Below, piece by piece: positions 28,417 to 52,418 of a stretch of 64,000 nucleotides of DNA. The DNA comes from a virus. The notes beneath the pieces were generated by a model that had not been told where the DNA came from, did no database searches, and saw nothing but the letters and a program-made list of their open reading frames with translations. The stretch's first letter is position 1, and the number at the start of each line of letters is the position of its first letter. The translations under genes and the position numbers were made by a program. The DNA lies in IMG/VR virus record IMGVR_UViG_3300023179_000035, positions 1-64,000 of that record. One strand, given 5' to 3'.

Positions 28417-29880
28417 ATGGCATACGGAACTAACAAATCATGTTTATGCCTCATATGTGACGAACAATTTGATCACATGAAGAAGCTGTCAGAACACATC
28501 AAGAAAATTCACAACCTATCACCGCAGGAATACTACACCAAGTACTTCAATAATAATCTGAGGCCATCCTGCCTCATCTGCGGTGGTGAAACGAGGTACG
28601 TCAGCCTCAGCGAGGGATTCAAAAAATACTGCGCATCGGATGCCAAAGTGGCAGCTTCAATGCTTGGTAGTGCTGGCGGTAAAATTAAAAAAACGTGGAA
28701 CAAGGGAAAGACGAAAGAGGACGACGCTAGGATCCTTGAACAGTCCAAGAAAATGTCTGGGGAGGGAAATCCGTTCTACGGCAAGAAACACTTGCCTGAA
28801 TCAATTAAGCGAAATGCCGATGCGCATAGGTTAAAATTTGATGAAGTAATTGGCAGAGTATCCAGAGAAGTTTCAAGCGTTTCTGTTGTCTCTGGCTGGA
28901 AGAGCTACGAAAGCCAAAATTCTCTCCTCCGCGTTGCATGCAAGAAGTGTTTGCTTGAAGACGACGTGTCGTTTTTCAATTTAATGAGATGCTGGAGATG
29001 CAAGAATTGTGATCCTATTGGATCAAGGCAACAGCTCGACATCTCGAATTACGTTAAGTCTTTTGGTTTTATCGTTGAAGACTCAACAAAGAAAGTTATC
29101 CCTCCCCTCGAGCTGGACGTCTGGATTCCGGAGAAGATGGTTGCTATAGAATATCACGGCCTTTACTGGCACTCAGGAGGGAGAGAATCGACGTTCGACA
29201 AGCGACGTCATAGAAAAAAGTACGAAGCTTGCGCCGCAGCTGGCATTAAACTCATACAAATTTTTTCTGATGAGTGGCGTGACAAAGAGGACATCTGCAA
29301 GTCGATTATAAAGAATGCGCTAGGCAAGAATGACGTAAAGTTGAATGCTAGAGATTGCGTAGTTGAAGATGTTGATGTCACGACAGCACAAAAATTTCTT
29401 AACGACACACACATCTCCGGCTACACGAGGTGCAAGCATAAGTTTGGGCTATTCCATAAGACGCATGGCCTTGTAGGAATTGCGACCACTAGAACACCGA
29501 TCCAAGGAAGATGGGGAAGGTTATCTGAGCTGGCCAGAATGTCATTTGCTAGCGGAGTTTCTGTCCGCGGGGGTGCATCAAAGTTACTCGAAAAGGTAAA
29601 GTCCCAAGCGGTTGTAGAAGGTTTCGAAGGAGTCCTATCCTACGCAGATCTTCGATTCGGCAATGGTGCTGTCTACGAAAAGTGCGGTCTAAAGTATATT
29701 GGAGAATCTACGATTAATTACTGGTACACTGATGGCCATAAACGATTTGACAGATTTGCATTCAAAGCGCAGCCTGGAAAATCTGAGAAGCTGGTGGCAG
29801 ATGAGGCTGGCGTTCGAGCCGTGTGGGGATCAGGTAATAAAATCTACGCGTGGAAACATGATCCTTCAATCTTTCTTTAG
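28417..29880 (+). mobile_element. Hef-like endonuclease (zinc finger, NUMOD3, Vsr/DUF559-like nuclease) with C-terminal Mom-like GNAT domain; copy 1
   Basis: CLIC..H..H; GEGNPFYGKKH; ELDVWIPEKMVAIEYHGLYWH...IFSDEW; ELARM...SYADLRFGNGAVY; AT-rich relative to flanks. Confidence 0.8.
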
Positions 29881-29916
29881 AACTAAAAGTTAGGTGTTTA
29901 ATTGGAAACTTCTTCT

Positions 29917-30051
29917 GACGACCTAACCCTCAGGTACGACCGTTTCAAATTTAGGGCCCGGGACGGAAAGTCAGAGAAGCAAGTCGCGATGGACGCTGGC
30001 GTCTCACGGATCTGGGGCTGCGGCTCCTTAACTTTTCAATTTCATCTATAA
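29917..30051 (+). pseudogene. Orphan C-terminal remnant of another Hef-like gene
   Basis: Translates to DDLTLRYDRFKFRARDGKSEKQVAMDAGVSRIWGCGSLTFQFHL*, matching the C-termini of the three intact paralogues. Confidence 0.85.
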
Positions 30052-30119
30052 GATCTCTGCCACTCCGCGATACTTAGCTTCCAAGGGTGCAACACCCACA
30101 AAGGAAGAGGAGATGAGAC

Positions 30120-30596
30120 ATGCCAAGCACAGTAATTTCTAGCGTGGGTACAGTCGACTACGCTGCCGGTAGCGGCGTCACGGTGTCGCAGGACGTCACC
30201 TTTGGATCTGACGTGACTGTCAGCGGCTCTCTCTACTCCGAGCAGGGCGCACAGTTCACGGGCGGCATGATCGAAGTCAGCGGGTCACTGTACGTCAGCG
30301 GATCGTTTCAAGCTGCTGACGTCGTCGAAGTAAGTGGATCCCTGTACGTCAGCGGAGTTTTCTACGCCAGCAGCGAGTTGGCAGGCACAGCAACGCTGTC
30401 GGGAGGCCAGGCGACTGTCCTCAACAGCAGCGTCGCTTCAAACTCCATGATCTTCCTCACGAAGCAGCCGACTGTCTCGTTCGTCGGCGGCGTCGTGTCT
30501 GTCTACACGGTCGTGTCAGGCACGTCCTTTGACATCACGTCGTCTGCGGCCGCCGACACAGACAAGGTAGCTTGGTTCATCGTCAACCCATCGTAA
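30120..30596 (+). CDS. Putative virion fibre or decoration protein with VSGSLY repeats
   Basis: Repeated (E/T)VSGSLY; GTATLSGG..TV C-terminal domain; ATACTTA motif and GGAG SD. Confidence 0.65.
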   Translation: MPSTVISSVGTVDYAAGSGVTVSQDVTFGSDVTVSGSLYSEQGAQFTGGMIEVSGSLYVSGSFQAADVVEVSGSLYVSGVFYASSELAGTATLSGGQATVLNSSVASNSMIFLTKQPTVSFVGGVVSVYTVVSGTSFDITSSAAADTDKVAWFIVNPS

Positions 30597-30711
30597 CGAT
30601 GCCTCGGTAGAGGTGCTAGAGGCCAAAGCAGCCAGGGCTGTGGGCTGCCTAATATTCTAAAAAGAAGAACCAAGAGCAGGATACTTACCGCTATCCAAGG
30701 GAGACACACGC

Positions 30712-31962: not shown

Positions 31963-31985
31963 AAGAATAAAAGGAGAAAATAAAA

Positions 31986-32375: not shown

Positions 32376-32392
32376 AAGTCTCTCGCAGTAAT

Positions 32393-35450: not shown

Positions 35451-35457
35451 ATACTTA
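35451..35457 (+). promoter_or_regulatory. Representative ATAnTTA putative late-promoter motif
   Basis: The same heptamer recurs in intergenic positions at 14979, 17033, 23610, 30070, 30681, 32436, 36890, 37353, 40563, 43711, 47298, 52454 and 58271 (minus strand). Confidence 0.7.
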
Positions 35458-35472
35458 CACTGTCTTTGACAA

Positions 35473-35840
35473 GGGGGCGAAATAGTTTCGACACGGCGGC
35501 GAACGCCGAGCCTGCAGGCGGGGGTGCACGAGGGTCCCCCTTCAAAACCCAAGTGACGTACAGATGCCAACGACAACGGCACCGCTGTTCTCGCCCTCGC
35601 GGCCTGAACAATGGGGTCCTAACACCTAGAAACAGAACGTTAGGAAAACGTCAGGGGACCAGACGTTAACTGGAACGCGTCAAAGTGCTGGACGTAAAAC
35701 GAAGTGCCGTCCGTGGTAGTCTAGGACGCTAAAGTTCGACTGTCTAATCCCGCCTGAGGATGAACAAATAGAAGGCCAAGCCTGTGAAAGATGGCTCGGA
35801 TTTTAAGTCGTGGACCCCGGGGCAGCGCCGGGCGCCTCCA
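35473..35840 (+). ncRNA. ssrA: tmRNA, one-piece, with tag ANDNGTAVLALAA
   Basis: Acceptor stem GGGGGCG/CGCCTCC with G3:U and discriminator A; helices ACGGC/GTCGT and CCGAGCC/GGCTCGG; T arm CCCGG-GGCAGCG-CCGGG; tag ORF 35566-35607 ending LAA*. Confidence 0.95.
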
Positions 35841-35877
35841 CTATAACAAACAACTGCAGACAGCAATACATAACTTC

Positions 35878-36661: not shown

Positions 36662-36663
36662 CC

Positions 36664-40600: not shown

Positions 40601-43600
40601 ATGGCCGAGCAGACATTCCGTTCACCTAATTTCTTTGACAGAGAGATAGACCTCTCAGGCAAGGTTCCAACCCCTCCGACCGGGACACCTGCCGGCGTCA
40701 TTGGAACATCCAATAAGGGGCCCGCCTTCGTTCCGGTTACAGTAGGCAACTTTGATGACTTTTCGCTGAAGTTTGGTGGCCTCAACCCAGACCACCCAGC
40801 CGTGTACGCTGTCAACAGGTTCCTAGAGACCAGGCAGTCTCTCACCTTCCTCAAGGTCCTCGGGGCGGGAGCTAACTCCTCGTCAGCAGACTCTGACTAC
40901 ACCAGAACGTACGGCAGGGTCGTCAACGCAGGGTTCACGCTGCCGTCTAGCAACTCAAACGGAGGCGTCTACTTCATATCGACTACCGAGGTCCCGACCG
41001 TCAGCGAGTCGTACGGCTTTCCTATGTTCAATGACAACGACTCCTTCTCTGGCTACGACTCCGTGTCAGGCACACTGGGCTCTGCAGGCATGCAGCTCAT
41101 CAGGGGCATGGTCATGCTGCCTTCGACAGCCAGGCTACTGACGTTTGGGTCGGGCACAAACGTGACTGAGACAGACGTCAACAGCCTCAACAAAGACCAC
41201 ACGTGGCTGGCCGACTCCCCTCTGGATGGTGACGCGGGCCTGGACTACTACTTCAAGCTCGTTATATCCTCTTCAAACTCTGACTTTAAGGCCTACAACA
41301 CGTCAGACGGCATAAAGGGCGTCAAGATATTCAGCGCGTCGCTCAACCCGAGCTCGCCCAACTACATCGGCAAGATACTCAACACTGACTCCAAGAAGTT
41401 CGAGGAGAAGCAGCACTTCCTATACGCTCACTTCCCAATCGACCACCAGGTGTCGTTCCCCGTCTCGGCCTCGCTGCTGTCTGGGACGCAAAACTCTAGC
41501 TTGGTCGACACCAACATCAAGTATAGGGACCTATTTGGTCACTTTGACACCCGCTTCACGACGCCAGCCTCTCCGACGTTCATATCACAGCCCTTCGGCG
41601 ACAAGGAGCACGACCTCTTCCACTTCGAGGCCCTGGACGACGGTGAGTTCGCCAACAAGCTCTACAAGATATCTGTCGCCAACCTCAAGGTGTCAGCTGA
41701 CCCGACGAACCCATACGGAACATTCTCGGTGCAGGTCAGGGACTGGAACGACTCGGACATAACACCTTCCATCCTAGAGCAGTACGATAACTGCGACCTC
41801 AACCCAAGCTCCCCCAACTACGTCGCCAAGCTGATCGGAGACATGCGCAGGTACTTCAACTTTGACGCCTCCACGCTGGCGGAGCGCAGGGTCCTCATAG
41901 ACGGCAACTTTGAGAACGTGTCCAAGCGCGTCAGAGTCGTCATGAACGACGACGTCAAGAACAAGCAGGTCCCGGCCAAGTCGTTGCCCTTCGGCTTCAG
42001 GGGAATGCAGCTCCTCAAGACCGCTGACACCATCAGCGGCATGAGCGGCTCAATCAACGCCGCCGCGACCATCCTGCAGCGTTCTGCCGGGACGGTGTCA
42101 GCCCAGCTACCACCGATACCCTTCAGGGTCAAGCTGACGACGGGCCAGGTTAACATGTCGGGCAGCCTATTTGACACCAGCAAGTACGAGGTCCTGAAGC
42201 CTAGCCTGTACTGGGGTGTCAAGTTCGAGCGCAACACAGACATCCTGAAGGTCAACGAGGTGGTAGAGCGCAACGAGCTGCTCGACAGCTACACCAAGTT
42301 CCTTGGAATACCTGGGCTGATGACCCTGACTGACCAGGACACGGCGGACTCCCTCAACAACAACAAGTTCAGCCTGTCGAGGGTCACCTTCAACGTCACC
42401 AGCCTGGACAACATGACGCAGTCGGCCGAGTTGCACATGCTGAACACAGCCTACATCAGGAACGGCGTTCCTGACCCGAACAGCTACATGATGGTCGACA
42501 CGACGAACAATATCAGCACCCCACACGTCACCCTAGCCTCTCTTGTCAACGCCACAGACAACAGCTACACTAACGGTGTCGTCGCTGCGTCTAACTTCAA
42601 CAGGTTCGCGCAGTACACGAAGTTCACCACGTTCATGTACGGAGGCTTCGACGGCACCAACATCCTCGACAACGACTCGAGGCTCCTCAACGAGAAGTCG
42701 CTGTCTTTCGTTGAGGTCTCCTCTGACGGGTCGGCGGGCGGTGCTTCAAGCATGTATGAGATGCCGGGCTTCCCAGGCTACAACCCGTCAGGAGTCCACG
42801 GCAAGAACGCTTCAGTGATGTCCTACAAGACTGCCGCTGACATCATGACTGACCCATACGCGGTGGCCACCAACATCCTGACGATACCTGGCATCAAGGA
42901 GTCGTTCGTCACAGACTACGCGGCCGAAAAGGTCCGTAGCTACGGCCTGGCCCTCTACGTCATGGACATCACGTCCTACGACGACGACAACAAGGCGATA
43001 TTCGACGGCACCAGGGCCAAGCCAAACATCGAGAACACTGCGGCCCAGTTCGAGCAGCGCAACATGGACAACGACTACGTGGCGACGTACTTCCCCGACG
43101 TGTTCTTGGATGACGCCACCAACCGCCGCCGCGTCAAAGTCCCAGCGTCAGTCGCGGCCCTTAGCGCCCTCGGCTTCAACGACAAGGATACGTTCCCGTG
43201 GTTCGCCCCGGCCGGCTTCAACAGGGCGTCCCTTGACTTCGTCACCAACGTTCAGGTGCGCCTCAACGTCACCGACAGGGACAGGCTGTACGACGCTAAG
43301 ATCAATCCAATCGCGACCTTCCCACGCCAGGGCTTCGTCATCTACGGCCAGAAGACGGTCAAGGCCAAGAAGTCTGCCCTGGACCGCGTCAACGTCCGCC
43401 GGCTGCTCCTCGAGGTCAAGAGGATAATCGGCAACATAGCCACCAACCTGATATTCGAGCAGAACACGCCGGCCCTTCGCAATAAGTTTGTGGCAGACGC
43501 CACCGTCCAGCTGGGCCTCATCCAGGCGCAGGCGGGCATCGAGGCGTCGCAGGTCATCATGAACGAGTCGAACAACACCCAGGACGACGTCGACAACAAC

Positions 43601-43696
43601 AGGCTCAACGGGCGCGTCGTCATAGTGCCGACCCGGTCGATCGAGTTCATCGCCATAGACTTCATAGTCACAAACAGCGGCGTTCAGTTCGTGTGA
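40601..43696 (+). CDS. Tail sheath protein 1
   Basis: SPNFFDREIDLS, KGPAFVP, WFAPAGFNR, INPIATFP, GQKT, SALDRVNVRRLL. Confidence 0.95.
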   Translation: MAEQTFRSPNFFDREIDLSGKVPTPPTGTPAGVIGTSNKGPAFVPVTVGNFDDFSLKFGGLNPDHPAVYAVNRFLETRQSLTFLKVLGAGANSSSADSDYTRTYGRVVNAGFTLPSSNSNGGVYFISTTEVPTVSESYGFPMFNDNDSFSGYDSVSGTLGSAGMQLIRGMVMLPSTARLLTFGSGTNVTETDVNSLNKDHTWLADSPLDGDAGLDYYFKLVISSSNSDFKAYNTSDGIKGVKIFSASLNPSSPNYIGKILNTDSKKFEEKQHFLYAHFPIDHQVSFPVSASLLSGTQNSSLVDTNIKYRDLFGHFDTRFTTPASPTFISQPFGDKEHDLFHFEALDDGEFANKLYKISVANLKVSADPTNPYGTFSVQVRDWNDSDITPSILEQYDNCDLNPSSPNYVAKLIGDMRRYFNFDASTLAERRVLIDGNFENVSKRVRVVMNDDVKNKQVPAKSLPFGFRGMQLLKTADTISGMSGSINAAATILQRSAGTVSAQLPPIPFRVKLTTGQVNMSGSLFDTSKYEVLKPSLYWGVKFERNTDILKVNEVVERNELLDSYTKFLGIPGLMTLTDQDTADSLNNNKFSLSRVTFNVTSLDNMTQSAELHMLNTAYIRNGVPDPNSYMMVDTTNNISTPHVTLASLVNATDNSYTNGVVAASNFNRFAQYTKFTTFMYGGFDGTNILDNDSRLLNEKSLSFVEVSSDGSAGGASSMYEMPGFPGYNPSGVHGKNASVMSYKTAADIMTDPYAVATNILTIPGIKESFVTDYAAEKVRSYGLALYVMDITSYDDDNKAIFDGTRAKPNIENTAAQFEQRNMDNDYVATYFPDVFLDDATNRRRVKVPASVAALSALGFNDKDTFPWFAPAGFNRASLDFVTNVQVRLNVTDRDRLYDAKINPIATFPRQGFVIYGQKTVKAKKSALDRVNVRRLLLEVKRIIGNIATNLIFEQNTPALRNKFVADATVQLGLIQAQAGIEASQVIMNESNNTQDDVDNNRLNGRVVIVPTRSIEFIAIDFIVTNSGVQFV

Positions 43697-43745: not shown

Positions 43746-46700
43746 ATGAGCAGCACTTACAGAGTTAGCCCAGGCGTCACCTCACGTGAGATAGACCTAA
43801 CAGGACCGACTACGACTGGGCCGAGGGGGGTGCCTGCAGGAGTCATAGGCACATCACAGATGGGACCTGCCTTCGTCCCGATCACCGTGGCCAACATCTC
43901 AGAGCTAGAGAACAGGTTCGGTGCCTTTGACAGGACAGAGTTTGGAATCCTGGCCGCCCGTGAGTGGCTGTCCAACGCTCAGGCCCTGACATACCTCAGG
44001 GTGCTGGGCGTTGGGACGGGCGAGATGAGCATGGTCAACGACAACGACTCCCCTGGGTCGGGAGCCGGCAGGGTAAAGTACGCTGGCTTCGTAGTCGGTA
44101 ACAAGCTTCCCGGAGCCGCCCTTGGCGGCACCTCGTGGGGTGACCTGGTCGGTAATCCATACGCTTCAGGTAGCGGCCCTGGCGGCAGGACCTACTTCTT
44201 AGGAGCTTTCATGGGGGCAGACGTCAACGTCGCCTCGGTGGGAGACCAGCTCTTTACAAGCGGCGTCCTCGCTGGCACAGCACCGCAGCCTTTCATCGTA
44301 GGAGTCCTGATGGCTCCAAGCGGGGTCGTCCTGACTCTGTCGTCGACGTACGGCGGTGGAAACTCTGACGTCGCCTCGTCTAACGCTTACCTGCCTAGCG
44401 GGTCAAGTGTTGGAGACGTGGTCCTCAAGAGCCCAGCCTCGACGATGTCTGGGATGAGCCAGTTCGTCATGCTGCTCAACGGGCACGCTACAGGAACGAC
44501 TGCCATAACAGCCTCGTTGTCCAGGAACAGCAACTCCTACTTCGGCTCCACCTTCAACACAGTTCCTACGAAGATGCAGGAGGCCGGTCACTACCTCTAC
44601 GCTGCCTGGGACTACCCAGGCCTGTCTGTGACAGGGTCCAGCCTGATGTCAGGGTCTGTCACCAGCTCTTACTCTAATCCAAAGTACGTTGAGCCTATCG
44701 TCTTCCTGCTGACTGGCTCCAACGACCAGAACCACGTCAGCGCCACGTCACCTAACTACGAGAACTTTGAGACACGCTTCGGCCACGCAGTCACTCCGAT
44801 GGTAGTGTCGCAGCGCATCGGCGGCAAGCCCACTGACCTCTTCCGCCTCCACGCCCTGTCAGACGGCGCCGGCGTCGCGAAGAATTACAAGTTCTCTATC
44901 GAGAATATAACGCCCTCCCCCGACCCTGCCTACCTATACGGCACGTTTGACCTCCTCGTCAGGTCGTGGAATGACACTGACTTTGAGAAGACGGTCTACG
45001 AGAAGTACACGGGCCTGTCGCTCGACCCAACAAACGACAGGTATATCGCCAAGGCGATCGGCGACGTCAACACCTACTACGACTTTGAGCGCGACACAAA
45101 CTCCCAGAAGCTCGTCGTCGAGGGGGACTACAACAACAACTCTAGCATCGTGAGGGTAGAGGTAAGCGACGATGTGTCCCTGGGGCTCGCCGCCGCAGAG
45201 TGCTTGCCGATGGGGTTCAGGGGACTCCCACACCTCGTCACTTCGGGCTCTGCCCTCAAGGTCGACGGCCTAGACCTAGCCGTGACAGGCTCTGGTGTCT
45301 CATCCTTCAGCAGCCTACTGAAGTCTGCCCGGCAGGCTCCGGTTCCGTACGTCCTGTCAATATACAAGGGCCTCAGCACGAAACGCACAGCAGACCCCAA
45401 CAGGTACTGGGGCGTCGCATTCGACCTACCAGTGCTAACAAACGACACAGGCGTCCAGCTGGGGCGCCACAAGAACCAGTTCGTGTCTGACTTCACCAAG
45501 TTCTTCCCACAGTTCATCGTGGGCAATCCCAACTTTGTCGTCGGCGACAATGCTGGTGTGGCTGACGACGTCAACTTCGGGGTGGTGGACGCCGACAGGT
45601 TCAACAACAACCTCTTCACGCTGGAGAACATCGCAGTCGTCACATCGTCCAAGACGCCGCACATGGCCGATCCAAACGCCTGGCAGAACGCTGAGTATAT
45701 GCGCAACGGCATCAAGCCTGCTGACGACCGCAGGATGCTAACCGTCTCTGACCTGACGACAGACAACAAGGGCTACGCCAAGTTCACCTTCGTGATGCAG
45801 GGCGGCTTCGACGGCGTCAACCTGTTCGACGAGCACTCGGCGGCCATCGACGGCGTAGCGGTGGAGTGCGACATGAGGCAGCCCCTACGGCACGACGTCA
45901 ACGGCGCCAACGTCAAGGCCTACACCAAGGCCCTGGACGTCATGAAGAACGTGACCAACGTCGACATACAGCTCCTCGCCATGCCAGGCATCAGGAACAC
46001 ATACGTGACTGACAGGGCCCTGGCCGCCGTCGAGTCCCGGTTCGACGCCATGTACCTGATGGACGTGGAGGCCTACGACCAGGGCGACAACCTCCTGCTA
46101 CCTGGCACGGAGAACTTCATGGACAACGGGCTGCCGGTGGAGAAGGTCGACGTCAGCTACACTGCGCAGAACTTCGCAGACCGCGGCATCAACTCCTCCT
46201 TCGGCGCTGCGTACTTCCCAGACCTCAGGTACGTCCACCCCAGCACTGCCGCTGAGGTCCAGGTACCACCGACTGTGGCTGTCCTCGGGGCCCTGTCCCT
46301 CAACGACAAACTGGGACACCCGTGGTTCGCTCCTGCCGGATACACCCGCGGGGTGCTGCCCAACGTGACAGACCCGACTGTTCCCCTGACAGACGCTGAC
46401 ATGGACAGGCTGTACGACAGGGACGTCAACATGGTCATCAAGAAGGCAGCCCCGGCCGGCACGGTGGTCTGGGGCCAAAAGACGCTGTTGAAGGCCGCCT
46501 CGGCCCTGGACCGCGTCAACGTCCGCCGCCTCTTGATAGAGGTACGACGCCAGGTCAGGGACATCGCCCAGACCATCCTCTTCGAGCCCAACAGGGCCGC
46601 CACCCTGGCCCGTTTCTCTGCTGCCATCACCCCGAGGCTGCAGACCATCCAGCAGCAGGCCGGCCTCGACAGGTTCAAGGTCATCATCGACTCCTCCACA

Positions 46701-46817
46701 ACGACGCAGGCCGACATCGAGAATAACACGGTCCGCGGCAAGATATACCTGCAGCCAACGAAGAGCGTCGAATTCGTGTCCTTGGACTTCGTTGTAACAA
46801 ACAACATCCAGCAGTGA
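43746..46817 (+). CDS. Tail sheath protein 2
   Basis: SPGVTSREIDL, GPAFVP, WFAPAGYTRG, WGQKTL, SALDRVNVRRLL. Confidence 0.95.
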   Translation: MSSTYRVSPGVTSREIDLTGPTTTGPRGVPAGVIGTSQMGPAFVPITVANISELENRFGAFDRTEFGILAAREWLSNAQALTYLRVLGVGTGEMSMVNDNDSPGSGAGRVKYAGFVVGNKLPGAALGGTSWGDLVGNPYASGSGPGGRTYFLGAFMGADVNVASVGDQLFTSGVLAGTAPQPFIVGVLMAPSGVVLTLSSTYGGGNSDVASSNAYLPSGSSVGDVVLKSPASTMSGMSQFVMLLNGHATGTTAITASLSRNSNSYFGSTFNTVPTKMQEAGHYLYAAWDYPGLSVTGSSLMSGSVTSSYSNPKYVEPIVFLLTGSNDQNHVSATSPNYENFETRFGHAVTPMVVSQRIGGKPTDLFRLHALSDGAGVAKNYKFSIENITPSPDPAYLYGTFDLLVRSWNDTDFEKTVYEKYTGLSLDPTNDRYIAKAIGDVNTYYDFERDTNSQKLVVEGDYNNNSSIVRVEVSDDVSLGLAAAECLPMGFRGLPHLVTSGSALKVDGLDLAVTGSGVSSFSSLLKSARQAPVPYVLSIYKGLSTKRTADPNRYWGVAFDLPVLTNDTGVQLGRHKNQFVSDFTKFFPQFIVGNPNFVVGDNAGVADDVNFGVVDADRFNNNLFTLENIAVVTSSKTPHMADPNAWQNAEYMRNGIKPADDRRMLTVSDLTTDNKGYAKFTFVMQGGFDGVNLFDEHSAAIDGVAVECDMRQPLRHDVNGANVKAYTKALDVMKNVTNVDIQLLAMPGIRNTYVTDRALAAVESRFDAMYLMDVEAYDQGDNLLLPGTENFMDNGLPVEKVDVSYTAQNFADRGINSSFGAAYFPDLRYVHPSTAAEVQVPPTVAVLGALSLNDKLGHPWFAPAGYTRGVLPNVTDPTVPLTDADMDRLYDRDVNMVIKKAAPAGTVVWGQKTLLKAASALDRVNVRRLLIEVRRQVRDIAQTILFEPNRAATLARFSAAITPRLQTIQQQAGLDRFKVIIDSSTTTQADIENNTVRGKIYLQPTKSVEFVSLDFVVTNNIQQ

Positions 46818-46838
46818 TAGACAAGGAATAGAAAGAGC

Positions 46839-47168
46839 ATGACAATGAAACTCACAGCCAACCAGCTCCGCCAGATCATCAAGGAGGAAGTCGATGCTAT
46901 GATGCCTGCCGCTGGAGGCAAAGACCCACAGCGCTTCCTCCACGGCTACGAGTCCGGTCACCCGATGGACGACGAGGGCTACATGGCCAAGTCCCGGATG
47001 GTGGATATCAAGGAGATGGCTGGGACGATCTGTGGCCTGGTGGAGGAGGGCGACCAGCTCCCAGCATGGGTGCAAGACCTGATCGCCAAGGCCCATGAGA
47101 ACCTTGAGCACGTCAAGGACTACATGGCCGGGGACGAGGCCCTGCGTGATGCCGGGGAGACAGACTGA
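46839..47168 (+). CDS. Small protein with MKLTANQLRQIIKEE leader; putative head-internal protein
   Basis: Shared leader; DEGYMAKS...LPAWVQ.LI..A...L helical domain. Confidence 0.7.
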   Translation: MTMKLTANQLRQIIKEEVDAMMPAAGGKDPQRFLHGYESGHPMDDEGYMAKSRMVDIKEMAGTICGLVEEGDQLPAWVQDLIAKAHENLEHVKDYMAGDEALRDAGETD

Positions 47169-47203
47169 CGCTGGCTGTGGCTCCGCCCTTCCTGTGAGAT
47201 AGG

Positions 47204-47240
47204 TCCTGGTGGTCCACGAGGCCACCAGGATTTTTCTTTT
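47204..47240 (+). terminator. Intrinsic terminator
   Basis: TCCTGGTGGTC / GGCCACCAGGA stem followed by TTTTTCTTTT. Confidence 0.85.
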
Positions 47241-47392
47241 CCTCTGGACGGTAGAAACCCACGCCTACTGTGGGAGGATTATCCTGGTGTCATCTAGATA
47301 CTTAAGCGACAGCCGATGATACGACCTGACACATTCCTCCGCCGCGTCATTCGTGAAGAGGCCAAGAGGGTCCTACACCCCAGCCATTTCGT

Positions 47393-48244
47393 GTGGGGCT
47401 CGTCCAGATGGGCTGCGGGACTGACCCCGCCCAGAACCTGGAGAGGGCTGTCGAGCTGACGCGTGAGGCAGCCCGGCTAGGCGCCAACGTCGTGTGTCAC
47501 CAGGAGCTGTTCCTGACGCAGTACTTCTGTCGCGTCCAGGACCCCCGTTCCTTTGGCCTGGCCGAGAGCGTTCCAGGCCCCACGACGGGTGCCATGAGTC
47601 GCCTCGCCAGGGAGCTGGGCGTCGTCATCGTGGTCCCTCTCTTCGAGAGGGCCGGCGCCCGCTTCTACGACACGGCTGTCATCATTGACGCTGACGGCTC
47701 CCTGGCGGGCAAGTACCGCAAGACGCACCTGCCGGAGGAGCCGCTGTACCACGAGAAGTTCTACTTCTCCCCTGGAGACCTTGGGTTTAGGGCCCACGAC
47801 ACACGGTTCGGTCGTATCGGCGTGCTCGTCTGTTGGGACCAGTGGTTCCCAGAGGCGGCCCGCCTGACTGCCCTGGACGGGGCAGACGTGCTGCTGTACC
47901 CCACAGCTATCGGGTGGAGCTCTGCTGACAGGGACCAGTACGGGGAGGCTGACCTGTCTGCCTGGGAGACAGTGCAGCGGGGCCACGCCATCTCTAACGG
48001 CGTCTATGTCGTGGCCGCCAACCGGACAGGGAGAGAGGGTCCACCAGGGCAAGACATCCAATTCTGGGGCTCGTCTTTCGCTGTCGACCCACACGGGCGG
48101 GTGGTGGCCAGGGCCTCCAGGGACGGCCAGGGGGTTTTAGTCGTTGACATCGACCCCTGGGAGGTCGCTGAGGCCCAACGACAGTGGCCCTTCTTTCGGG
48201 ACAGGCGGGTGGACGCCTACGGCGGGCTGGTTGGCGGCAGGTGA
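47393..48244 (+). CDS. Carbon-nitrogen hydrolase (N-carbamoylputrescine amidase-like); true start uncertain
   Basis: Catalytic E-K-C in HQELF, YRKTHLP and VCWDQWFPE; YPTAIGW; WPFFRDRR. Confidence 0.88.
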   Translation: MGLVQMGCGTDPAQNLERAVELTREAARLGANVVCHQELFLTQYFCRVQDPRSFGLAESVPGPTTGAMSRLARELGVVIVVPLFERAGARFYDTAVIIDADGSLAGKYRKTHLPEEPLYHEKFYFSPGDLGFRAHDTRFGRIGVLVCWDQWFPEAARLTALDGADVLLYPTAIGWSSADRDQYGEADLSAWETVQRGHAISNGVYVVAANRTGREGPPGQDIQFWGSSFAVDPHGRVVARASRDGQGVLVVDIDPWEVAEAQRQWPFFRDRRVDAYGGLVGGR

Positions 48245-50119
48245 CACGTTGAGGCGGTAGACCAGGTTGGAGCACCCCCAGATCTTGACGACGCCAGCCT
48301 CGTCTGCCACCTGGGCCTCCGTCATGCCGCGGGAGGGGTCAGCCTTGAACTTGAAGCGATCGAACCGCTTGTGATAGTCTGTCCACCAATAACGTGGACT
48401 AGTCTTTTTTTCCAAGATGAATCCTGACAGGACGTACCCGTTACCATCGCCTCCGAGTCGGGTGTCAACGTAAGATATGACGCTTGAAACGCCAGTTACC
48501 CTCGCCTCTTGAACAACTTTTTTGACCAACCTGCTCATTCCACCTGGGACCACTAGGTTAACCCTAGAGCAAAAGCGGGCTATCTCCAATGATTCGCTGT
48601 ACTTTTTGTGGAACGGTCGCCGTGCTGAGATTGCGGCCACCAGCTCTCCGTCTTTCGTCCTAAGACCGAAAGAAAAAGAGGCATTGACATCGCCATCGAG
48701 GTGGTTGAGCTCAAAAAATTCGCGACGTTCCTCTGGGCTGAGGCCGACGACGTCGCAGTCTCGAGCGTTGACCCTATCGTTGATCATCTGCAGCTTTGAT
48801 AGGATCGTCGACTTTACGACCTCCCGCTTGTCGTACCACTCGTCTTCGAAGATATGGACGAGAGACACCCCGTGCTTTTCACAAGATAAAGACTTTTGCT
48901 GGTGGTACCTAGCGTCTTTGCCTGGTTGTGTTTCACCGTGCCAGAATAGTCCATTAAACTCTATGGCAACCATCTTCTCCGGAACGAAGATGTCTAACTG
49001 CTTCTTACCGTCCAGGATTCCGACAACGTTCCGGCCAACGTAAAGGCCAAGCGACTGAAGCCAGTCAGCGATCTCATTCTGGCCACGCGACCCTATGGGA
49101 GTACACTTGGGGCACCTGTCTGCTCGCGCGCGGTCAAATGTGACTGCATCAGACCACCCACAAGACTTGCACCTGACGAGGATAGACGAGACGTAGACAT
49201 TTTTATAGCTTTCTATCTCGACGAGCTCTACTGCTTGGTTGCCTGACAACTTTTCTCTAACCACATCTTCTGACCAGTGGACGTGCTGGTACTCCTTCAT
49301 GGCGTCACGATTAGCCCAAAACTTGTCGATGCGTGGGTCTTCGGCTGCAGTTTTTCCAGCGTGCCACGCCTTGACACGTCCGGACTCATATGCTTGCCGG
49401 AGGGATTCATTCTTCTGCTTGACGCGATCGTCGACCTCTTCAGACAGGCCCTTGTGCCACTGCGACCTTATGCCGTTTGCAAAGTCTTCCTTCAAGCGCT
49501 GGGAAAACGCCAGTAGCCTTTCGTCGGTCTCTTTGGTTAGGCCCTTCGACCAGGCCTTTAGCTCGCCTTCATCAAAGGCCTTCTTCCTTCCTACGCTAGT
49601 TGCGGCAGCGCGGGCTGCCACCCGTTCGTCAGTTTCTTTGGTCAACCCCTTTGACCACCCTGTAGTTCCCCTCAGGGCGGCAGACCGCTTTGCGGCTATC
49701 TCCAACGCCTTCTCTTCTTCGTAGACTGAGTAGATGCTCGCGTTGTGACCGCATAGGACAGACGAGTACCCCTTTGCCCATCCAACCCACGTAGTCTGCC
49801 TTCCGCACCCACACTTGCAAAGTGCTGGACTAGCGTCCTTTAGTCGCAGCCACAGCTCCTCTGGAGAAACGCCGTGTCTCGCAGCGTGCTCTTCGACGCC
49901 TTCCTTAGAGGTCCTAAACTCTTCAGTGCACAGAGAACATTTTTCTGTCCCGGCGTTCTTCTTCCCATTATTGGACCGCGAGCACTTAACACAAGGAGAA
50001 CCCGCCTTCTCGGCCGCTCTACACTTTGCCTTGGACTTATGCTCGACGGTCGAGCCGCACTGGGGGCAGTGTCTTGACCATAAGGTCTCTTTTTCTTTAG
50101 CTTCCATCTTTTCTAGCAT
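48137..50119 (-). mobile_element. Hef-like endonuclease with Mom-like GNAT domain; copy 2
   Basis: Zinc fingers, CKCGCG, WSKGLTKETDER repeats, LDIFVPEKMVAIEFNGLFWH...IFEDEW, EIARF...SYVDTR...GNGY. Confidence 0.8.
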
Positions 50120-50219
50120 TGTACTTCATTTAATTAAGCTTTTGCATACGAAAAAAGTCGTATATGAACGTGCAGCTATACGTAACTTTGGCACTTAAAG
50201 TGCGAAGAGGAGACACACC

Positions 50220-50708
50220 ATGGCCGAGACACTCGACGTTTCATCAATGATTCCGAATAAGTTCGAACCAAAGCGCAAAAATAGATGGGTATTAATGATA
50301 GAAGGCATTGACGCCTACATCGTCAAGAGCGCCTCGCGCCCCACCTTCACCACGGACGAGGTTGAGATACCGTTCATCAACTCCCGCCGCTACGTGGCCG
50401 GCATGACCAAGTTTGAGACCATCTCGGTCAACCTCCACGACCCCATCGCTCCCTCGGGCGCCCAGCAGGTCATGGAGTGGATCCGTCTCCACTTCGAGTC
50501 GGTGTCGGGCCGCGCTGGCTACGCTGACTTCTACAAGAGGGACATCCAGCTTAAGATGCTTGATCCTGTCGGTACAGTGATAGAACTTTGGGACATCAAA
50601 GGCGCTTTCATTACATCGGCCAACTTCGGTGAGCTCGCGTATGATGGCGCAGATCCACAGGAGATCCAGCTCACGATTAGGTTCGACAACTGCGTGCTGC
50701 AGTTCTGA
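50220..50708 (+). CDS. Tail tube protein (gp19-like)
   Basis: FEPKRKNRW, SASRP, V.EW, YKRDI.L.MLDPVG..IE.W.IKGAF; GAGGAG SD. Confidence 0.9.
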   Translation: MAETLDVSSMIPNKFEPKRKNRWVLMIEGIDAYIVKSASRPTFTTDEVEIPFINSRRYVAGMTKFETISVNLHDPIAPSGAQQVMEWIRLHFESVSGRAGYADFYKRDIQLKMLDPVGTVIELWDIKGAFITSANFGELAYDGADPQEIQLTIRFDNCVLQF

Positions 50709-50765
50709 TTCGATAAAAATACCTACTGGGTTGCACAACTTCGAAGGCTGTGGTACATTTATGCC

Positions 50766-52418
50766 ATGGCCTTCGAACGCATTCGCTGCCCCCGCTGCGA
50801 CCTAACATTTGGACAAGAAGCTCGGTTCCTCGACCACCTGGTCGATGTCCACGGGATCCCGGATCATCTAGCCCTGTACCTTGAGCTCCACCACTGTGGC
50901 ATTCACCCGACCTGTCAGTGCTCGTCTGATTGTCAGGAGAAGCTGTCTTGGTCCGGGTGGAAGAAAGGGTTCCTGTCAAAGTTCGTCCGTGGCCACAACG
51001 CTCGCGTCGACTCTGTCTACCTCGACCCCGCACGCCAGGCTGAGTTCGCCAAGAAGAGGGCCGACGGCTACGCTGGCGGTAAGTACAAGGTCTGGAACGA
51101 CGGTCTGACCAAAGAGACGTCTGCGAAGGTTGCAGGTATGGCCGTGAAGACGTCTGCCACCCTTCAGGAGCTGTACTCTTCTGGTTATAACTCTTGGCAG
51201 AGTGGGAAGACGAAGGAAGAAGACCCCCGTGTTGCCAACATGGCCGCGTCCAGGGTTGCAGCGTTACGAGCGGGTGAGATCCATGTTTGGAACAAGGGCC
51301 TGACAAAGGAGGATGACCCGCGTGTTGAGCTGTTGTCGCAGAAGCTTTCAGCCTTAAAGCAGGCTTACGACCCGCGTCGCTTAACGCCGGCGGAGCTGCT
51401 GAATCGAGTCGAACAGTTTCCGCAGTTCTCACTCGTCACCCCGCCTAGTGAGTACCGCAACAAGTACCAGCGACTCAAGTTCAAGTGCATTGAATGTGGG
51501 ACCGAGCAGGAGAAGAACCTCATGATGCTAGAGTCTACTCCCGTCTGCTTCTCCTGCCACCCCAAAGAGTCCAAGGGCCAGCTGGAGCTCCTGGAGTTCG
51601 TCCGGTCCCTTGGGGTGGAAGCTGCCTCCAACGACAGGACGGTCCTGGCTCCCCTGGAGGTGGACGTCTGGGTCCCGTCCCACAAGTTCGGTGTGGAGTA
51701 CAACGGCCTCTACTGGCACTCCTCCCTCGTCATCGCAGACCAGAAGTACCACCAGGCCAAGCACGACGCTGCCCGAGCGGCAGGAGTCAGTCTCTTCAGC
51801 GTCTACGAGGACGAGTGGAGGGACAGGCGTCCCGTCGTGGAGGGCATGCTACGCCACCGCCTCAAGATGCCTGTCGAAGTGTTGGACGCCCGCAAGCTGA
51901 GGGTGGAGCAGCTGGACTCGGCCGTCGCTACAGGCTTCTTCCAGGCCTCCCACCTGGAGGGGGCGACACGCAGCGTCGCATCTTTCGGCCTCGTCGATGG
52001 GTCCGGCCGCGTGGTGGCCGCTTCTTCCCTCCGCCGCCCCTTCCACAAGCGGCACTCGGACACGCTTGAGGTGGCCAGGTCAGCCACCCTGCCTGGCGTC
52101 GCAGTCAGGGGCTGGCTAGGGAAGCTGACGCCTCACCTGGCCCGCTACGCTTCTTCTGCTGGCATGAAGGGCCTGATGACATACGTCGACGGCCGCGTCG
52201 GCGCCGGCGTTGGCTACGAGGCAGCCGGGTGGAAGCTGGAGCGGGCCTCTACCGGCCCCCGCTTCTGGTGGACAGACTTCGAGCGCAGGTACAACCGCTT
52301 TAAGTTCAAGGCCGATAAGTCCCGTGGCATGACGCAGGCCCAGGTGGCCCAGGAGGCGGGGGTCGTCGAGATCTATGGGTGCTCCAACTCCTCCTGGCGA
52401 CTTGACGTCGTACCGTAG
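50766..52418 (+). mobile_element. Hef-like endonuclease with Mom-like GNAT domain; copy 3
   Basis: C2H2 finger, WNKGLTKEDDPRV repeats, EVDVWVPSHKFGVEYNGLYWH...VYEDEW, EVARS...TYVDGR...GVGY; TTGCAC-N17-TACATT upstream. Confidence 0.8.

What the first reader, a model, noticed from the sequence alone, without database searches (positions are those of the whole stretch)
28417..52418. Family of nuclease / Mom-like GNAT fusion genes: candidate mobile cut-and-modify system
Seen: three paralogues (28417-29880 +, 48137-50119 -, 50766-52418 +) share one layout: variable zinc fingers and W(N/S)KG(L/K)TKE repeats, then a Vsr/DUF559-like nuclease (D(V/I)(W/F)(I/V)P...E(Y/F)xGL(Y/F)WH...DEW), then a conserved C-terminal domain. 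Recalled knowledge: that domain aligns by eye with phage Mu Mom, an adenine-modifying GNAT. Mom LRVE...KHYS matches LRVE...SHLEG, THISG and NHLDG. Mom ELNRM matches ELARM, EIARF and EVARS. Mom SFADER..GVVY matches SYADLRFGNGAVY, SYVDTR..GNGY and TYVDGR..GVGY. The His, Asp and Tyr that I recall as Mom's metal ligands are present in all three copies. Inference: these 'Hef-like homing endonucleases' may pair a nuclease with a DNA-modifying or modification-sensing domain. Such an element could mark its own genome and cut unmarked competing phage DNA at essential genes.
Basis: partly seen in the sequence, partly recalled or inferred. Interest (0 to 1): 0.9.

Follow-up and report, generated by a model that had tools for sequence, protein, structure and literature searches.

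The report
Hef-type homing endonucleases with Mom-like domain
Three selfish DNA-cutting "homing endonuclease" genes wedged between the capsid, sheath and tube genes of an uncultured giant phage each end in a well-preserved relative of phage Mu's DNA-modifying enzyme Mom; this gene type is common and already described, but what its Mom-like part does has never been tested.

Summary
The three ORFs are paralogues (30-35% identity) with one layout: zinc finger and W-x-K-G-x-T-K-E repeats, a Vsr-like nuclease, then a C-terminal domain. That domain is a GNAT whose closest solved structure is Mu Mom (8bv8, Foldseek E 1.6e-8). The profile-profile match to Mom has 95% probability. Equivalents of Mom H58, R111 and Y159 are invariant in 151/151 family domains, and D149 and R151 are nearly so.

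The genes belong to the very large Hef-like / EDxHD homing-endonuclease family: 421 phage records and 8815 cluster representatives. In related phages they are present or absent at exactly these sites, as free-standing homing genes are.

The nuclease-Mom fusion and the cut-and-protect idea are already in print (Iyer et al. 2021). This scan has noted the same thing in at least 165 other genomes.

Added here:
- Unlike Mom, the family keeps a GCN5-like glycine loop.
- The Hef-3 lineage lacks the serine that Mom needs.
- A synonymous AAG-to-AAA change in tube codon 14 tracks the upstream gene (Fisher p = 1.6e-11). This points to sequence-based immunity or co-conversion.

Whether the GNAT modifies DNA is still untested; I put it at about one in three. 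An ordinary new member of a known kind.

The parts
28417..29880 (+). Hef-1, a free-standing Hef-type homing endonuclease gene (487 aa). It has a C2H2 zinc finger, a Cys4 ribbon, one W-N-K-G-K-T-K-E repeat plus a NUMOD3-like stretch, a Vsr-like nuclease and a Mom-like GNAT. Its composition is foreign to the genome.
   Evidence: GC is 44.9% (GC3 47.7%), against 63.7% (GC3 87.3%) for the capsid gene just upstream.
29014..29328 (+). Hef-1 Vsr-like (EDxHD-type) nuclease domain, residues about 200-304. D234, E245, H252 and D285 are intact.
   Evidence: Family profile A2 matches I-Bth0305I (3r3p) at E 2.5e-5. The single protein matches it only weakly. Residues are invariant in the three paralogues. 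The DEHD tetrad is intact in 30 of 31 synteny-found copies.
29329..29877 (+). Hef-1 Mom-clade GNAT domain, residues 305-487. It has H332, E371, R374, G385, S388, D411, R413, Y420 and R446.
   Evidence: Domain alone scores 32.4 bits on Pfam Mom, above the 27.1 cut-off. AF2 model pLDDT 96.3. Foldseek top hit is 8bv8 Mom, E 1.6e-8, TMq 0.72. hhalign probability 95.3%.
29920..30048 (+). Relic of the last ~43 codons of another Hef-type gene (end of the GNAT domain plus a stop codon). It lies 40 nt after the Hef-1 stop and points to an earlier occupant of the same site.
   Evidence: Profile match at E 2.9e-11 to positions 500-543 of the paralogue profile. Translation. GC 53.5%, intermediate.
48137..50119 (-). 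Hef-2 (660 aa), between the second sheath gene and the tube gene and divergent from the tube gene. It has extra N-terminal Cys motifs, four W-x-K-G-L-(T/S) repeats, a nuclease (48785-49105) and a GNAT (48236-48784), with an unmatched 35-residue tail.
   Evidence: GNAT residue pattern HERGSDRYR and nuclease pattern DEHD. GC 54.3%.
50766..52418 (+). Hef-3 (550 aa), directly after the tube gene. It has a zinc finger, three repeats, a nuclease (51552-51866) and a GNAT (51867-52415). The GNAT has Gly where Mom has its essential Ser124.
   Evidence: Patterns DEHD and HERGGDRYR. GC 61.6%.
50220..50708 (+). Tail tube gene, bracketed by Hef-2 and Hef-3 and the presumptive homing target or co-converted flank. 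Codon 14 (50259-50261) is AAG here.
   Evidence: phrog_4542 tail tube, E 9e-32. GC3 is 0.78-1.0 in the middle and 0.33-0.67 at both ends. Codon-14 association. Sequence read.
26421..28313 (+). Major head protein gene. Hef-1 sits 103 nt downstream of it.
   Evidence: phrog_138, E 1e-72. tblastn finds relatives among T4-like phages.
43746..46817 (+). Second of two tandem tail-sheath paralogues. In HEG-less relatives it directly abuts the tube gene.
   Evidence: phrog_23 tail sheath, E 1.5e-49. Gaps of 47-780 nt in 54 relatives.

Best explanation
The three genes are free-standing Hef-type homing endonuclease genes of an uncultured T4-like giant phage. This identity is shown or nearly certain (about 0.95).

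The family has a Vsr-like PD-(D/E)xK nuclease of the 'EDxHD' lineage. Each protein carries N-terminal zinc and NUMOD-like DNA-reading modules, an intact nuclease, and a C-terminal GNAT of the Mom clade. In the model these parts pack with the nuclease into one compact unit.

Inferred working:
1. The N-terminal modules hold the enzyme on a long site in the conserved neighbouring virion gene of a co-infecting phage that lacks the element.
2. The nuclease cuts there.
3. Recombinational repair copies the gene and its flanks into the cut genome.

Most likely role of the GNAT (inferred, about 0.35): it is still an enzyme acting on DNA. It would flip a base at or near the enzyme's own site into the conserved H/E/R/D/R/Y pocket. 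It would then transfer an acyl or aminoacyl group from an activated donor. The donor could be aminoacyl-tRNA, as in Mom, or acyl-CoA, as the retained glycine loop suggests. The carrier genome would thus be marked and spared while naive DNA is cut. This is the logic of single-chain type IIG/IIC restriction-modification enzymes, placed inside a homing element.
For: Identity:
- PHROG homing-endonuclease families at E 4e-50 to 3e-75.
- 421 phage records hold relatives, many annotated 'Hef-like homing endonuclease'.
- The nuclease profile matches I-Bth0305I (3r3p) at E 2.5e-5. Taylor et al. 2011 place Hef-type enzymes in that family (PMC3239194, passages read).

Mobility:
- Among 80 relatives of the tube gene, the sheath|tube junction holds a Hef-2-like gene in 20, none in 54, unknown in 6.
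- The site after the tube gene holds a full Hef-3-like gene in 7, shorter hits in 26, none in 30, unknown in 17.
- After the capsid gene: 3 full copies, 3 fragments, 44 none, 30 unknown.
- Hef-1 has foreign composition and sits beside a relic of an earlier copy.
- The tube gene's ends have a different GC3 from its middle.

GNAT of the Mom clade:
- pLDDT 96.3.
- Mom 8bv8 is the top Foldseek hit: E 1.6e-8, TMq 0.72, against 0.59 or less for the other GNATs listed.
- VIA aligns 171 residues to Mom against 128-143 for the other 49 GNAT rows, so the match includes the beta6-beta7 insertion.
- hhalign probability 95.3%.

Pocket under selection:
- Equivalents of Mom H58, R111 and Y159 are kept in 151/151 domains; D149 in 135 (plus E in 15); R151 in 129.
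- R111 is said to be Mom-specific within GNATs (10.1101/861617, passage read).
- In 31 copies found by synteny, not by GNAT similarity, nuclease and GNAT always occur together. H/E/R/G/D are kept in 31/31.

One unit: the model of the ribbon, nuclease and GNAT together has pTM 0.89.

Analogy: a parallel family joins the same Hef-type nuclease (47 of 120) or NUMOD4/HNH (16 of 120, my count) to an SPPY amino-methyltransferase-like domain (116 of 120) in place of the GNAT.
Against: - No chemistry was measured here, nor in any paper I could find.
- The Ser that is essential in Mom (S124A is catalytically dead) is Ser in only 97 of 151 family domains. It is Gly in Hef-3, and Gly or Ala in all 8 genes at the Hef-3 position.
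- Mom Y59 and the dimer residue W48 are not kept.
- By sequence profile the domain matches GCN5 acetyltransferases (E 2.3e-6), while Mom 8bv8 is not among the 21 hits at E up to 10. The acceptor therefore need not be DNA.
- VIA Z-scores tie Mom with ordinary GNATs (15.4 against 15.3).
- Carrier genomes seem to have sequence-level protection or a co-conversion marker. Tube codon 14 is AAA in 18 of 21 alleles with the upstream gene and AAG in 51 of 54 without it. Modification is thus not obviously needed.
- In the two relatives I opened (L009, L013), the site after the tube gene holds a homing-type nuclease with the same kind of N-terminus. It has a TnsA-like nuclease and no GNAT. Homing at this site does not require a GNAT.
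- The 151-domain sample was chosen by GNAT similarity, which inflates conservation.
Confidence: 0.35

Rival explanations
1. The GNAT is a non-catalytic DNA-recognition module. It is descended from a Mom-like enzyme and still clamps DNA and flips a base into the old pocket. This adds specificity or positions the nuclease, without transferring any group.
For: The Ser essential for Mom catalysis is missing in 54 of 151 domains and in the whole Hef-3 lineage, while the arginines and the beta6-beta7 insertion are kept. In Mom these arginines and the insertion are assigned to nucleic-acid binding (PMC13219725, section 13 read). The GNAT packs tightly with the nuclease (pTM 0.89). Carrier alleles show a sequence marker at a candidate target.
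Against: Glu371 is invariant. It aligns with the catalytic-base position of GCN5; that role is my recollection, and the alignment is. Also invariant or nearly so are the His, the Tyr (151/151) and the glycine of the cofactor loop (G385, 151/151). That is more than a binding scaffold should need. The proteins already have dedicated N-terminal DNA-binding modules.
Confidence: 0.25
2. The GNAT is an ordinary acyl-CoA-dependent acetyltransferase acting on a protein or small molecule. Candidates include a host or rival repair, recombination or defence protein, or the enzyme itself. It would help the element indirectly.
For: The best sequence-profile hits in the PDB are GCN5 histone acetyltransferases (E 2.3e-6) across beta4-alpha3-beta5. 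These include the motif-A glycine and an 'L-T-Y-A-D' stretch. Mom is not listed. G385 is 151/151, whereas Mom has no glycine there. Pfam Acetyltransf_1 gives weak hits in 2 of 9 domains.
Against: Mom is the top structural hit and the only one covering the insertion. Pfam's only GNAT hit on the three full-length proteins is Mom. R374 and R413 match Mom's R111 and R151, which GCN5 lacks. The parallel family swaps the GNAT for a DNA methyltransferase-like domain, not for a protein modifier.
Confidence: 0.15
3. These are not homing elements. They would be phage-encoded single-chain restriction-modification-like weapons that momylate the phage genome broadly and degrade host or superinfecting DNA. 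This is the reading of Iyer et al. 2021.
For: It is a published prediction for jumbo-phage Mom-REase fusions (PMC7824862, section 3.4.7 passages read). The pocket is conserved.
Against: - Presence or absence varies at fixed intergenic sites beside conserved virion genes.
- The N-terminal modules are of the NUMOD and zinc-finger type.
- There are relics and compositional mosaics.
- A different homing-type nuclease occupies the same site in relatives.
- The nuclease belongs to a proven homing-endonuclease family (PMC3239194). Phage U5 Hef is cited in print as a homing enzyme (PMC2988022, passage read).

This rival and the homing reading are not mutually exclusive.
Confidence: 0.1

Closest known systems
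Hef of T-even-like phage U5 and the 'Hef-like' free-standing homing endonucleases. Examples are in Bacillus phages AR9 and PBS1, Campylobacter phages such as CP30A and NCTC12673 with 10-12 copies each, Yersinia phiR1-37, and Dickeya LIMEstone F-LimIII/VII/VIII/X.
   Same: The nuclease-plus-C-terminal-domain core is the same: tblastn matches of 28-35% identity over roughly residues 240-625 of Hef-2, and PHROG 3339/559. The genes are free-standing beside conserved virion or replication genes. In LIMEstone one of them sits by the tail tube gene (PMC3296691, Table 1 read).
   Different: Only 30-35% identical to any deposited phage copy. The number of N-terminal zinc modules and repeats differs. 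No cleavage or homing data exist for these copies. I could not read the original Hef paper (Sandegren et al. 2005; not held).
I-Bth0305I, prototype of the EDxHD (Vsr-like) homing endonuclease family, PDB 3R3P
   Same: The nuclease fold and catalytic residues are the same (profile hit E 2.5e-5; D/E/H/D kept). It has N-terminal NUMOD-type DNA-binding modules, and Hef-type enzymes are assigned to this family in print (PMC3239194).
   Different: I-Bth0305I is intron-encoded and ends with the nuclease, with no GNAT domain.
Phage Mu Mom (PDB 8BV8), a Gly-tRNA(Gly)-dependent adenine-N6 modifying GNAT
   Same: GNAT fold with an insertion between beta6 and beta7. It is the top structural hit. Equivalents of H58, E108, R111, D149, R151 and Y159 are conserved.
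   Different: - About 18-20% identity.
- No basic N-terminal tail and no W48 dimer residue.
- Y59 is replaced by an aliphatic residue.
- S124 is variable.
- A GCN5-like glycine loop is kept, which Mom lacks.
- The insertion is shorter.
- The domain is always tethered to a nuclease rather than standing alone: 134 of 153 by a crude three-sequence model, and 31 of 31 in the synteny set.
- The one 'stand-alone' copy I opened (P0007) was in fact part of a longer ORF.
Mom-REase fusions of jumbo phages described by Iyer, Anantharaman, Krishnan, Burroughs and Aravind 2021 (e.g. five in PA5oct)
   Same: This is the same architecture and the same proposed protect-and-cut logic.
   Different: That paper does not call them homing endonucleases; the terms 'Hef', 'homing endonuclease' and 'Vsr' occur 0 times in it. 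It assumed an acyl-CoA donor.
Single-chain type IIG/IIC restriction-modification enzymes (recalled examples: MmeI, BcgI)
   Same: One polypeptide combines a nuclease with a domain that modifies an exocyclic amine of a DNA base. This is a functional analogy only.
   Different: No methyltransferase domain is present in these three genes. They have long homing-type sites rather than short restriction sites. They are not members of that group.

Membership tests
Hef-type / EDxHD (Vsr-like) homing endonucleases | Vsr-like PD-(D/E)xK nuclease domain with the conserved acidic, His and Asp catalytic residues | tested here: met
   Family profile hits 3r3p at E 2.5e-5. D234, E245, H252 and D285 are invariant in the three paralogues and intact in 30 of 31 synteny-found copies. 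The Pfam REase_MTES_1575 hits are only weak.
Hef-type / EDxHD (Vsr-like) homing endonucleases | [quoted passage not shown] | tested here: inconclusive
   NUMOD3 scores 20.1 bits in Hef-1, just under the 20.4 cut-off. The W-x-K-G-x-T-K-E repeats and Cys/His motifs are seen directly. No Pfam NUMOD hit for Hef-2 or Hef-3.
Hef-type / EDxHD (Vsr-like) homing endonucleases | Free-standing gene beside a conserved gene, present or absent among related genomes | tested here: met
   Counts are present / absent / unknown. Sheath|tube junction: 20 / 54 / 6. After the tube gene: 7 full plus 26 shorter hits / 30 / 17. After the capsid gene: 3 full plus 3 fragments / 44 / 30.
Hef-type / EDxHD (Vsr-like) homing endonucleases | Site-specific double-strand cleavage of the HEG-less allele and gene conversion (homing) | not testable with these tools
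   Indirect signs only: the GC3 mosaic of the tube gene, the codon-14 marker, and a relic copy.
Mom family (Pfam PF25680) | GNAT fold with the Mom-type insertion between beta6 and beta7 | tested here: met
   AF2 pLDDT 96.3. 8bv8 is the top Foldseek hit. VIA aligns 171 residues (model 7-183 to chain 37-227), against 128-143 for the other 49 GNAT rows, although Z is tied at 15.4 against 15.3.
Mom family (Pfam PF25680) | Score above Pfam's gathering cut-off (27.1 bits) | tested here: inconclusive
   Hef-1 passes: 28.7 bits full length and 32.4 bits for the domain alone. Hef-2 and Hef-3 give no Pfam Mom hit at E up to 1, and only weak PHROG 1384 hits at 4.5e-6 and 6.9e-3. 4 of 9 isolated domains hit Mom at E up to 0.01.
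Mom family (Pfam PF25680) | Residues shown to matter in Mom: H58, Y59, R111, S124, D149, R151, Y159 (PMC13219725, section 13) | tested here: inconclusive
   H, R111, D, R151 and Y159 equivalents are present in all three copies. The S124 equivalent is Ser in Hef-1 and Hef-2 and Gly in Hef-3. The Y59 equivalent is Ile or Leu in all three.
Mom family (Pfam PF25680) | Aminoacyl-tRNA-dependent modification of adenine N6 in double-stranded DNA | not testable with these tools
   No biochemical or sequencing-kinetics data were available.
Classical acetyl-CoA GNATs (GCN5-like) | Motif A pyrophosphate-binding loop (Q/R-x-x-G-x-G/A) and sequence-profile similarity | tested here: inconclusive
   The profile of 9 isolated domains hits Tetrahymena GCN5 at E 2.3e-6 over beta4-alpha3-beta5. 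The loop glycine G385 is 151/151. The sixth motif position is Ala, Met and Leu in the three copies. Pfam Acetyltransf_1 is below its cut-off.
Type IIG/IIC single-chain restriction-modification enzymes | DNA methyltransferase domain fused to the nuclease | tested here: not met
   No methyltransferase family was detected in the three proteins. A sister architecture with an SPPY methyltransferase-like domain exists in other phages.

The most novel reading that the evidence does not exclude
Hef-type homing endonucleases are single-chain 'cut-and-mark' selfish elements. The Mom-clade GNAT would put a site-specific acyl or aminoacyl adduct on a base inside the enzyme's own long recognition site. Carrier genomes would be immune by chemistry rather than by sequence. 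The element could then target absolutely conserved codons and persist on alleles that still carry the sensitive sequence. This window's tube gene may be such a case: it keeps the HEG-less AAG form of codon 14. That would make one of the commonest phage gene families a large, unexplored reservoir of programmable site-specific DNA base-modifying enzymes.
Probability: 0.3. Interest if true: 0.75.

Novelty: new member of a known kind. Interest (0 to 1): 0.3.

Why it matters
On its own the locus is ordinary: three more members of a family with thousands of members, whose domain make-up and proposed logic are already in print.

The open point is general. No one has tested what the Mom-like domain of Hef-type homing endonucleases does. 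The 2026 reconstitution of Mom with Gly-tRNA and its crystal structure now give the assay and the residues needed to ask.

If the domain modifies DNA at a single long site, the family would supply site-specific base-modifying enzymes. It would also be a new way for selfish genes to gain self-immunity. If it does not, the family would be a clear case of an enzyme fold kept as a DNA-reading module.

The codon-14 marker offers a concrete candidate target for cleavage assays.

Tried and rejected
- Pairwise BLASTP of each paralogue against Mu Mom gave only weak local matches (best E 0.003 for Hef-1). It misaligned Hef-2 onto its nuclease, so I moved to profiles.
- phmmer of full-length Hef-1 against PDB sequences found nothing significant.
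- The near-identity search of the phage collection with 5 kb of the window found nothing.
- Foldseek with the two-domain model returned only GNAT hits, so it says nothing about the nuclease fold. I did not fold the nuclease alone.
- NCBIfam gave only sub-threshold hits to 'XF1762 family protein' (26 bits against a cut-off of 50) and none for Mu Mom itself.
- A stand-alone form of the GNAT: the one case I could open (P0007) was the end of a 293-aa ORF with a truncated, degenerate nuclease. I do not claim that stand-alone forms exist. The other short hits were not examined.
- The association scan for the downstream gene had little power (8 against 30 alleles; best p 9.5e-4). I draw nothing from it.
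- The scans are not corrected for relatedness. Mean identity within and between groups is similar (0.775, 0.761, 0.752). HEG-plus alleles include duplicates: 18 distinct 54-nt stretches in 21 alleles.
- ARAGORN found no tRNA or tmRNA in the window.
- Literature: searches for Hef-like + homing endonuclease + Mom, 'Mom domain' + endonuclease, EDxHD + GNAT, Mom-like + homing endonuclease, momylation, and homing endonuclease + acetyltransferase domain + phage found no paper that links Hef to Mom by name or tests the domain. In some searches the 'mom' matches were chance words.
- Iyer et al. 2009 and Sandegren et al. 2005 are not held. What I say of them is taken from citing papers or recalled.
Those of Iyer 2021 and Silva 2026 may list these fusions or residue conservation.

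Full report
WHAT IS THERE

The window is the first 64 kb of a 116,394-base IMG/VR virus record that CheckV rates 32% complete. Its virion genes are T4-like. They include a major head protein (26421-28313), two tandem tail-sheath paralogues (40601-43696 and 43746-46817) and a tail tube protein (50220-50708). By capsid protein the nearest deposited phages are only 31-52% identical: an uncultured 484-kb phage, Rhodothermus RM378, Flavobacterium 'immuto' and Microcystis Mel-JY01.

The three ORFs of the finding are real. They encode 487, 660 and 550 residues. They align end to end at 30-35% identity.

WHAT THE GENES ARE

All three hit the PHROG 'homing endonuclease' families 3339 and 559 at E 4e-50 to 3e-75. 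A tblastn of Hef-2 finds 421 phage records. The matches cover the nuclease plus the C-terminal domain and are often annotated 'Hef-like homing endonuclease'. They include AR9, PBS1, phiR1-37 and Campylobacter phages with 10-12 copies each.

A profile of the family matches the catalytic domain of I-Bth0305I (3r3p) at E 2.5e-5. Taylor et al. 2011 already place Hef-type enzymes in that Vsr-like 'EDxHD' homing family (PMC3239194, passages read).

The catalytic D234, E245, H252 and D285 (Hef-1 numbering) are invariant in the three paralogues. They are intact in 30 of 31 copies collected by synteny.

THE C-TERMINAL DOMAIN

Sequence evidence:
- Pfam's Mom family is the only GNAT family hit among the three full-length proteins. 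It passes the curated cut-off for Hef-1 (28.7 against 27.1 bits; 32.4 bits for the domain alone). Pfam lists no Mom match for Hef-2 or Hef-3 at E up to 1.
- A phmmer search of 1.84 billion cluster representatives with the Hef-1 domain found 8815 at E up to 0.001. In the 150 rows listed, the match lies at the C-terminus of 250-940-residue proteins in most cases.
- I cut out the domain from 148 of the best 150 and added the three window copies. hhalign against Mu Mom and its orthologues gave probability 95.3% and E 2.1e-8 over 139 columns.

Structure evidence:
- An AlphaFold2 model has mean pLDDT 96.3.
- Its best Foldseek match in the PDB is the Mom crystal structure 8bv8 (E 1.6e-8, TMq 0.72). 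The other GNATs listed reach TMq 0.59 at most.
- VIA-align ties Mom with ordinary GNATs on Z (15.4 against 15.3). Mom is however the only row that aligns 171 residues, so the match includes the insertion between beta6 and beta7.

The fold claim is firm. Mom as the nearest relative is well supported.

RESIDUE-LEVEL COMPARISON

Silva et al. 2026 (PMC13219725; abstract and section 13 read in full, other passages by search) show that Mom transfers glycine from Gly-tRNA(Gly) to adenine N6. They name H58, Y59, R111, S124, D149, R151 and Y159 as the active-site set. R111, S124 and R151 are essential, and the insertion is essential too.

On the hhalign register the family of 151 domains compares as follows:
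- H58 equivalent: 151/151
- R111 equivalent: 151/151
- Y159 equivalent: 151/151
- D149 equivalent: D in 135, E in 15
- R151 equivalent: 129
- S124 equivalent: Ser in only 97 (Gly 29, Gln 18)
- Y59 equivalent: never Tyr

That sample was chosen by GNAT similarity, so I repeated the count on copies found only by their position next to tube or capsid genes. There were 31 ORFs with a nuclease, and all 31 also had the GNAT. This gave 28 distinct sequences, to which I added the three window copies. H, E, R, G and D are 31/31, R413 is 30/31, and Y420 is 28/31 with Trp in the other 3.

Hef-3 and all seven full orthologues at its position have Gly or Ala in place of the Mom serine.

A DIFFERENCE FROM MOM

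A profile of nine isolated domains finds GCN5 histone acetyltransferases as its best PDB sequence match (E 2.3e-6). The match runs across beta4-alpha3-beta5. Mom itself is not among the 21 hits at E up to 10.

The family keeps the cofactor-loop glycine (G385, 151/151), where Mom has P-R-N-S-E-S. The activated donor may therefore differ from Mom's.

MOBILITY

Among 80 IMG/VR relatives whose tube protein is 76-89% identical:
- The sheath|tube junction holds a Hef-2-like gene on the minus strand in 20. The sheath abuts the tube gene in 54, and 6 are unknown.
- The site after the tube gene holds a full Hef-3-like gene in 7, shorter matches in 26, nothing in 30, and 17 are unknown.

In the two shorter cases I opened (L009, L013), the occupant is a different 302-residue free-standing nuclease. 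It has a similar zinc-finger and repeat N-terminus, a TnsA-like nuclease (Pfam E 4e-13, above cut-off) and no GNAT.

After the capsid gene, 3 of 80 relatives hold a full Hef-1-like gene, 3 hold fragments, 44 hold none and 30 are unknown.

Further signs of movement:
- Hef-1 has 44.9% GC (GC3 47.7%) beside a capsid gene of 63.7% GC (GC3 87.3%). Hef-2 and Hef-3 are closer to the genome's composition.
- A 43-codon relic of another Hef 3' end lies 40 nt after Hef-1.
- The window's tube gene has GC3 of 0.78-1.0 in its middle and 0.33-0.67 at both ends. Co-conversion with the flanking elements would produce this pattern.

A CANDIDATE TARGET OR IMMUNITY MARKER

A column-by-column scan of the tube gene gave one outstanding site, nt 42, the third base of Lys codon 14 in the conserved P-N-K-F-E-P stretch. 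It is AAG in 51 of 54 alleles without the upstream gene. It is AAA in 18 of 21 alleles with it (Fisher p = 1.6e-11; the next best site has p = 2e-6).

The two groups are not separate clades by overall identity. Several other 5'-proximal synonymous sites (nt 6, 15, 27, 57) show weaker association, as a co-conversion gradient would give.

The window itself, L004 and L006 are the exceptions. They carry the gene and the AAG form.

This is the classical signature of a free-standing homing endonuclease. It shows that most carriers are distinguished by sequence, which weakens the need for protection by modification. The test is not tree-corrected.

A PARALLEL ARCHITECTURE

Next to a decayed nuclease-GNAT gene in locus L162 lies a 719-residue protein. 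It has the same kind of N-terminus, a Vsr-like nuclease, and a C-terminal domain with an SPPY motif. That domain gives weak hits to N6/N4 DNA methylases in three libraries (Pfam E 0.032, PHROG 498 E 1.3e-4, PDB 2zie E 0.2).

The domain has 157 homologues. Of the best 120:
- 116 have SPPY or SPPF.
- 47 have a Hef-type nuclease and none has the GNAT.
- By my count of the table, 43 carry a precomputed PF01555 hit and 16 carry NUMOD4 and/or HNH_3.

Homing-type nucleases are thus repeatedly joined to a domain of a DNA base-modifying kind. This is the best indirect argument that the GNAT also acts on DNA. An earlier follow-up of this scan (e1-5823960) reached the same point on other DNA.

HOW IT MOST LIKELY WORKS

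Shown:
- family membership
- intact nuclease and GNAT pockets
- a compact ribbon-nuclease-GNAT unit (pLDDT 94.8, pTM 0.89)
- presence/absence polymorphism

Inferred: homing by cleavage of the HEG-less allele, followed by repair.

For the GNAT I rate the readings as follows:
- An active DNA-directed transferase that marks the enzyme's own site: about 0.35.
- A non-catalytic base-flipping DNA reader: 0.25.
- An acyl-CoA protein or small-molecule acetyltransferase: 0.15.
- A broad restriction-modification-like weapon, as proposed in print: 0.1.
- The remainder is unassigned.

WHAT IS KNOWN ALREADY

Iyer et al. [quoted passage not shown] They propose that momylation protects the phage while the nuclease attacks other DNA, and they note five such enzymes in PA5oct (PMC7824862, section 3.4.7 passages read). 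They do not use the words Hef, Vsr or homing endonuclease.

No held paper links the two literatures or tests the domain.

This scan has recorded 233 findings with these words in at least 165 genomes. The follow-ups I saw reached the same verdict.

VERDICT

The homology claim is supported. The functional claim is open and not new. This is a new member of a known kind, and interest is modest.

- the residue audit against the 2026 Mom structure
- the GCN5-like loop
- the serine-less Hef-3 lineage
- the site census
- the codon-14 marker

Noticed in passing
window 29920-30048 (+): A 43-codon relic of the 3' end of another Hef-type gene (end of the GNAT domain plus its stop codon) lies 40 nt after the Hef-1 stop. 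Its GC is intermediate (53.5%). It suggests that the low-GC Hef-1 replaced an older resident copy.
   Followed up: partly
window 50220-50708, codon 14 at 50259-50261; loci L002-L081: A synonymous AAG/AAA polymorphism in tube codon 14 tracks the upstream Hef-2-like gene: AAA in 18/21 alleles with the gene, AAG in 51/54 without it. The window itself is an exception, having the gene with AAG. This is a candidate cleavage-site immunity change or co-conversion marker. The test is not tree-corrected.
   Followed up: partly
L009:6556-7464 and L013:2188-3096: In these relatives the site just after the tube gene holds a different free-standing nuclease gene (302 aa). It has a C2H2 finger, a Cys motif and W-x-K-G-L-T-K-D-D-type repeats like the Hef N-terminus. 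Its nuclease is TnsA-like (Pfam E 4e-13) and it has no GNAT. The same reading head appears with a different cutting domain.
   Followed up: partly
L162:395-2554 and L162:2647-3528: Two adjacent genes. The first (719 aa) has a zinc-finger N-terminus, a Vsr-like nuclease and an SPPY N6/N4-methyltransferase-like domain. The second (293 aa) has a truncated, degenerate nuclease but an intact Mom-like GNAT. The methyltransferase-like domain has 157 homologues, some fused to NUMOD4/HNH.
   Followed up: partly
proteins P0042, P0050, P0059, P0072, P0082, P0105, P0111, P0119, P0121, P0138: Ten of the 150 best family representatives have a GIY-YIG-like N-terminus by pattern match. The family profile hits the I-TevI catalytic domain at E 2.3e-6. 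All ten also matched the Vsr-like nuclease model, so some members may carry two nuclease domains.
   Followed up: no
window 40601-43696 and 43746-46817: Two tandem tail-sheath paralogues of about 1030 aa each. Relatives also show two sheath-like matches in tandem.
   Followed up: no
window 26421-28313: The major head protein is 630 aa. It matches most relatives in two pieces covering only about 55-62% of it, so it may carry an insertion domain.
   Followed up: no
window 46818-48136: A 1.3-kb stretch lies between the second sheath gene and the 3' end of Hef-2, with small ORFs (46839-47168, 109 aa). A homologue of that ORF lies after the tube gene in L076 (55% identity). No Hef relic was detected there.
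   Followed up: no
window 35451-35843: Another first-stage note reports a tmRNA here. ARAGORN on the whole window reported no tRNA or tmRNA gene. I did not test it with Rfam.
   Followed up: partly
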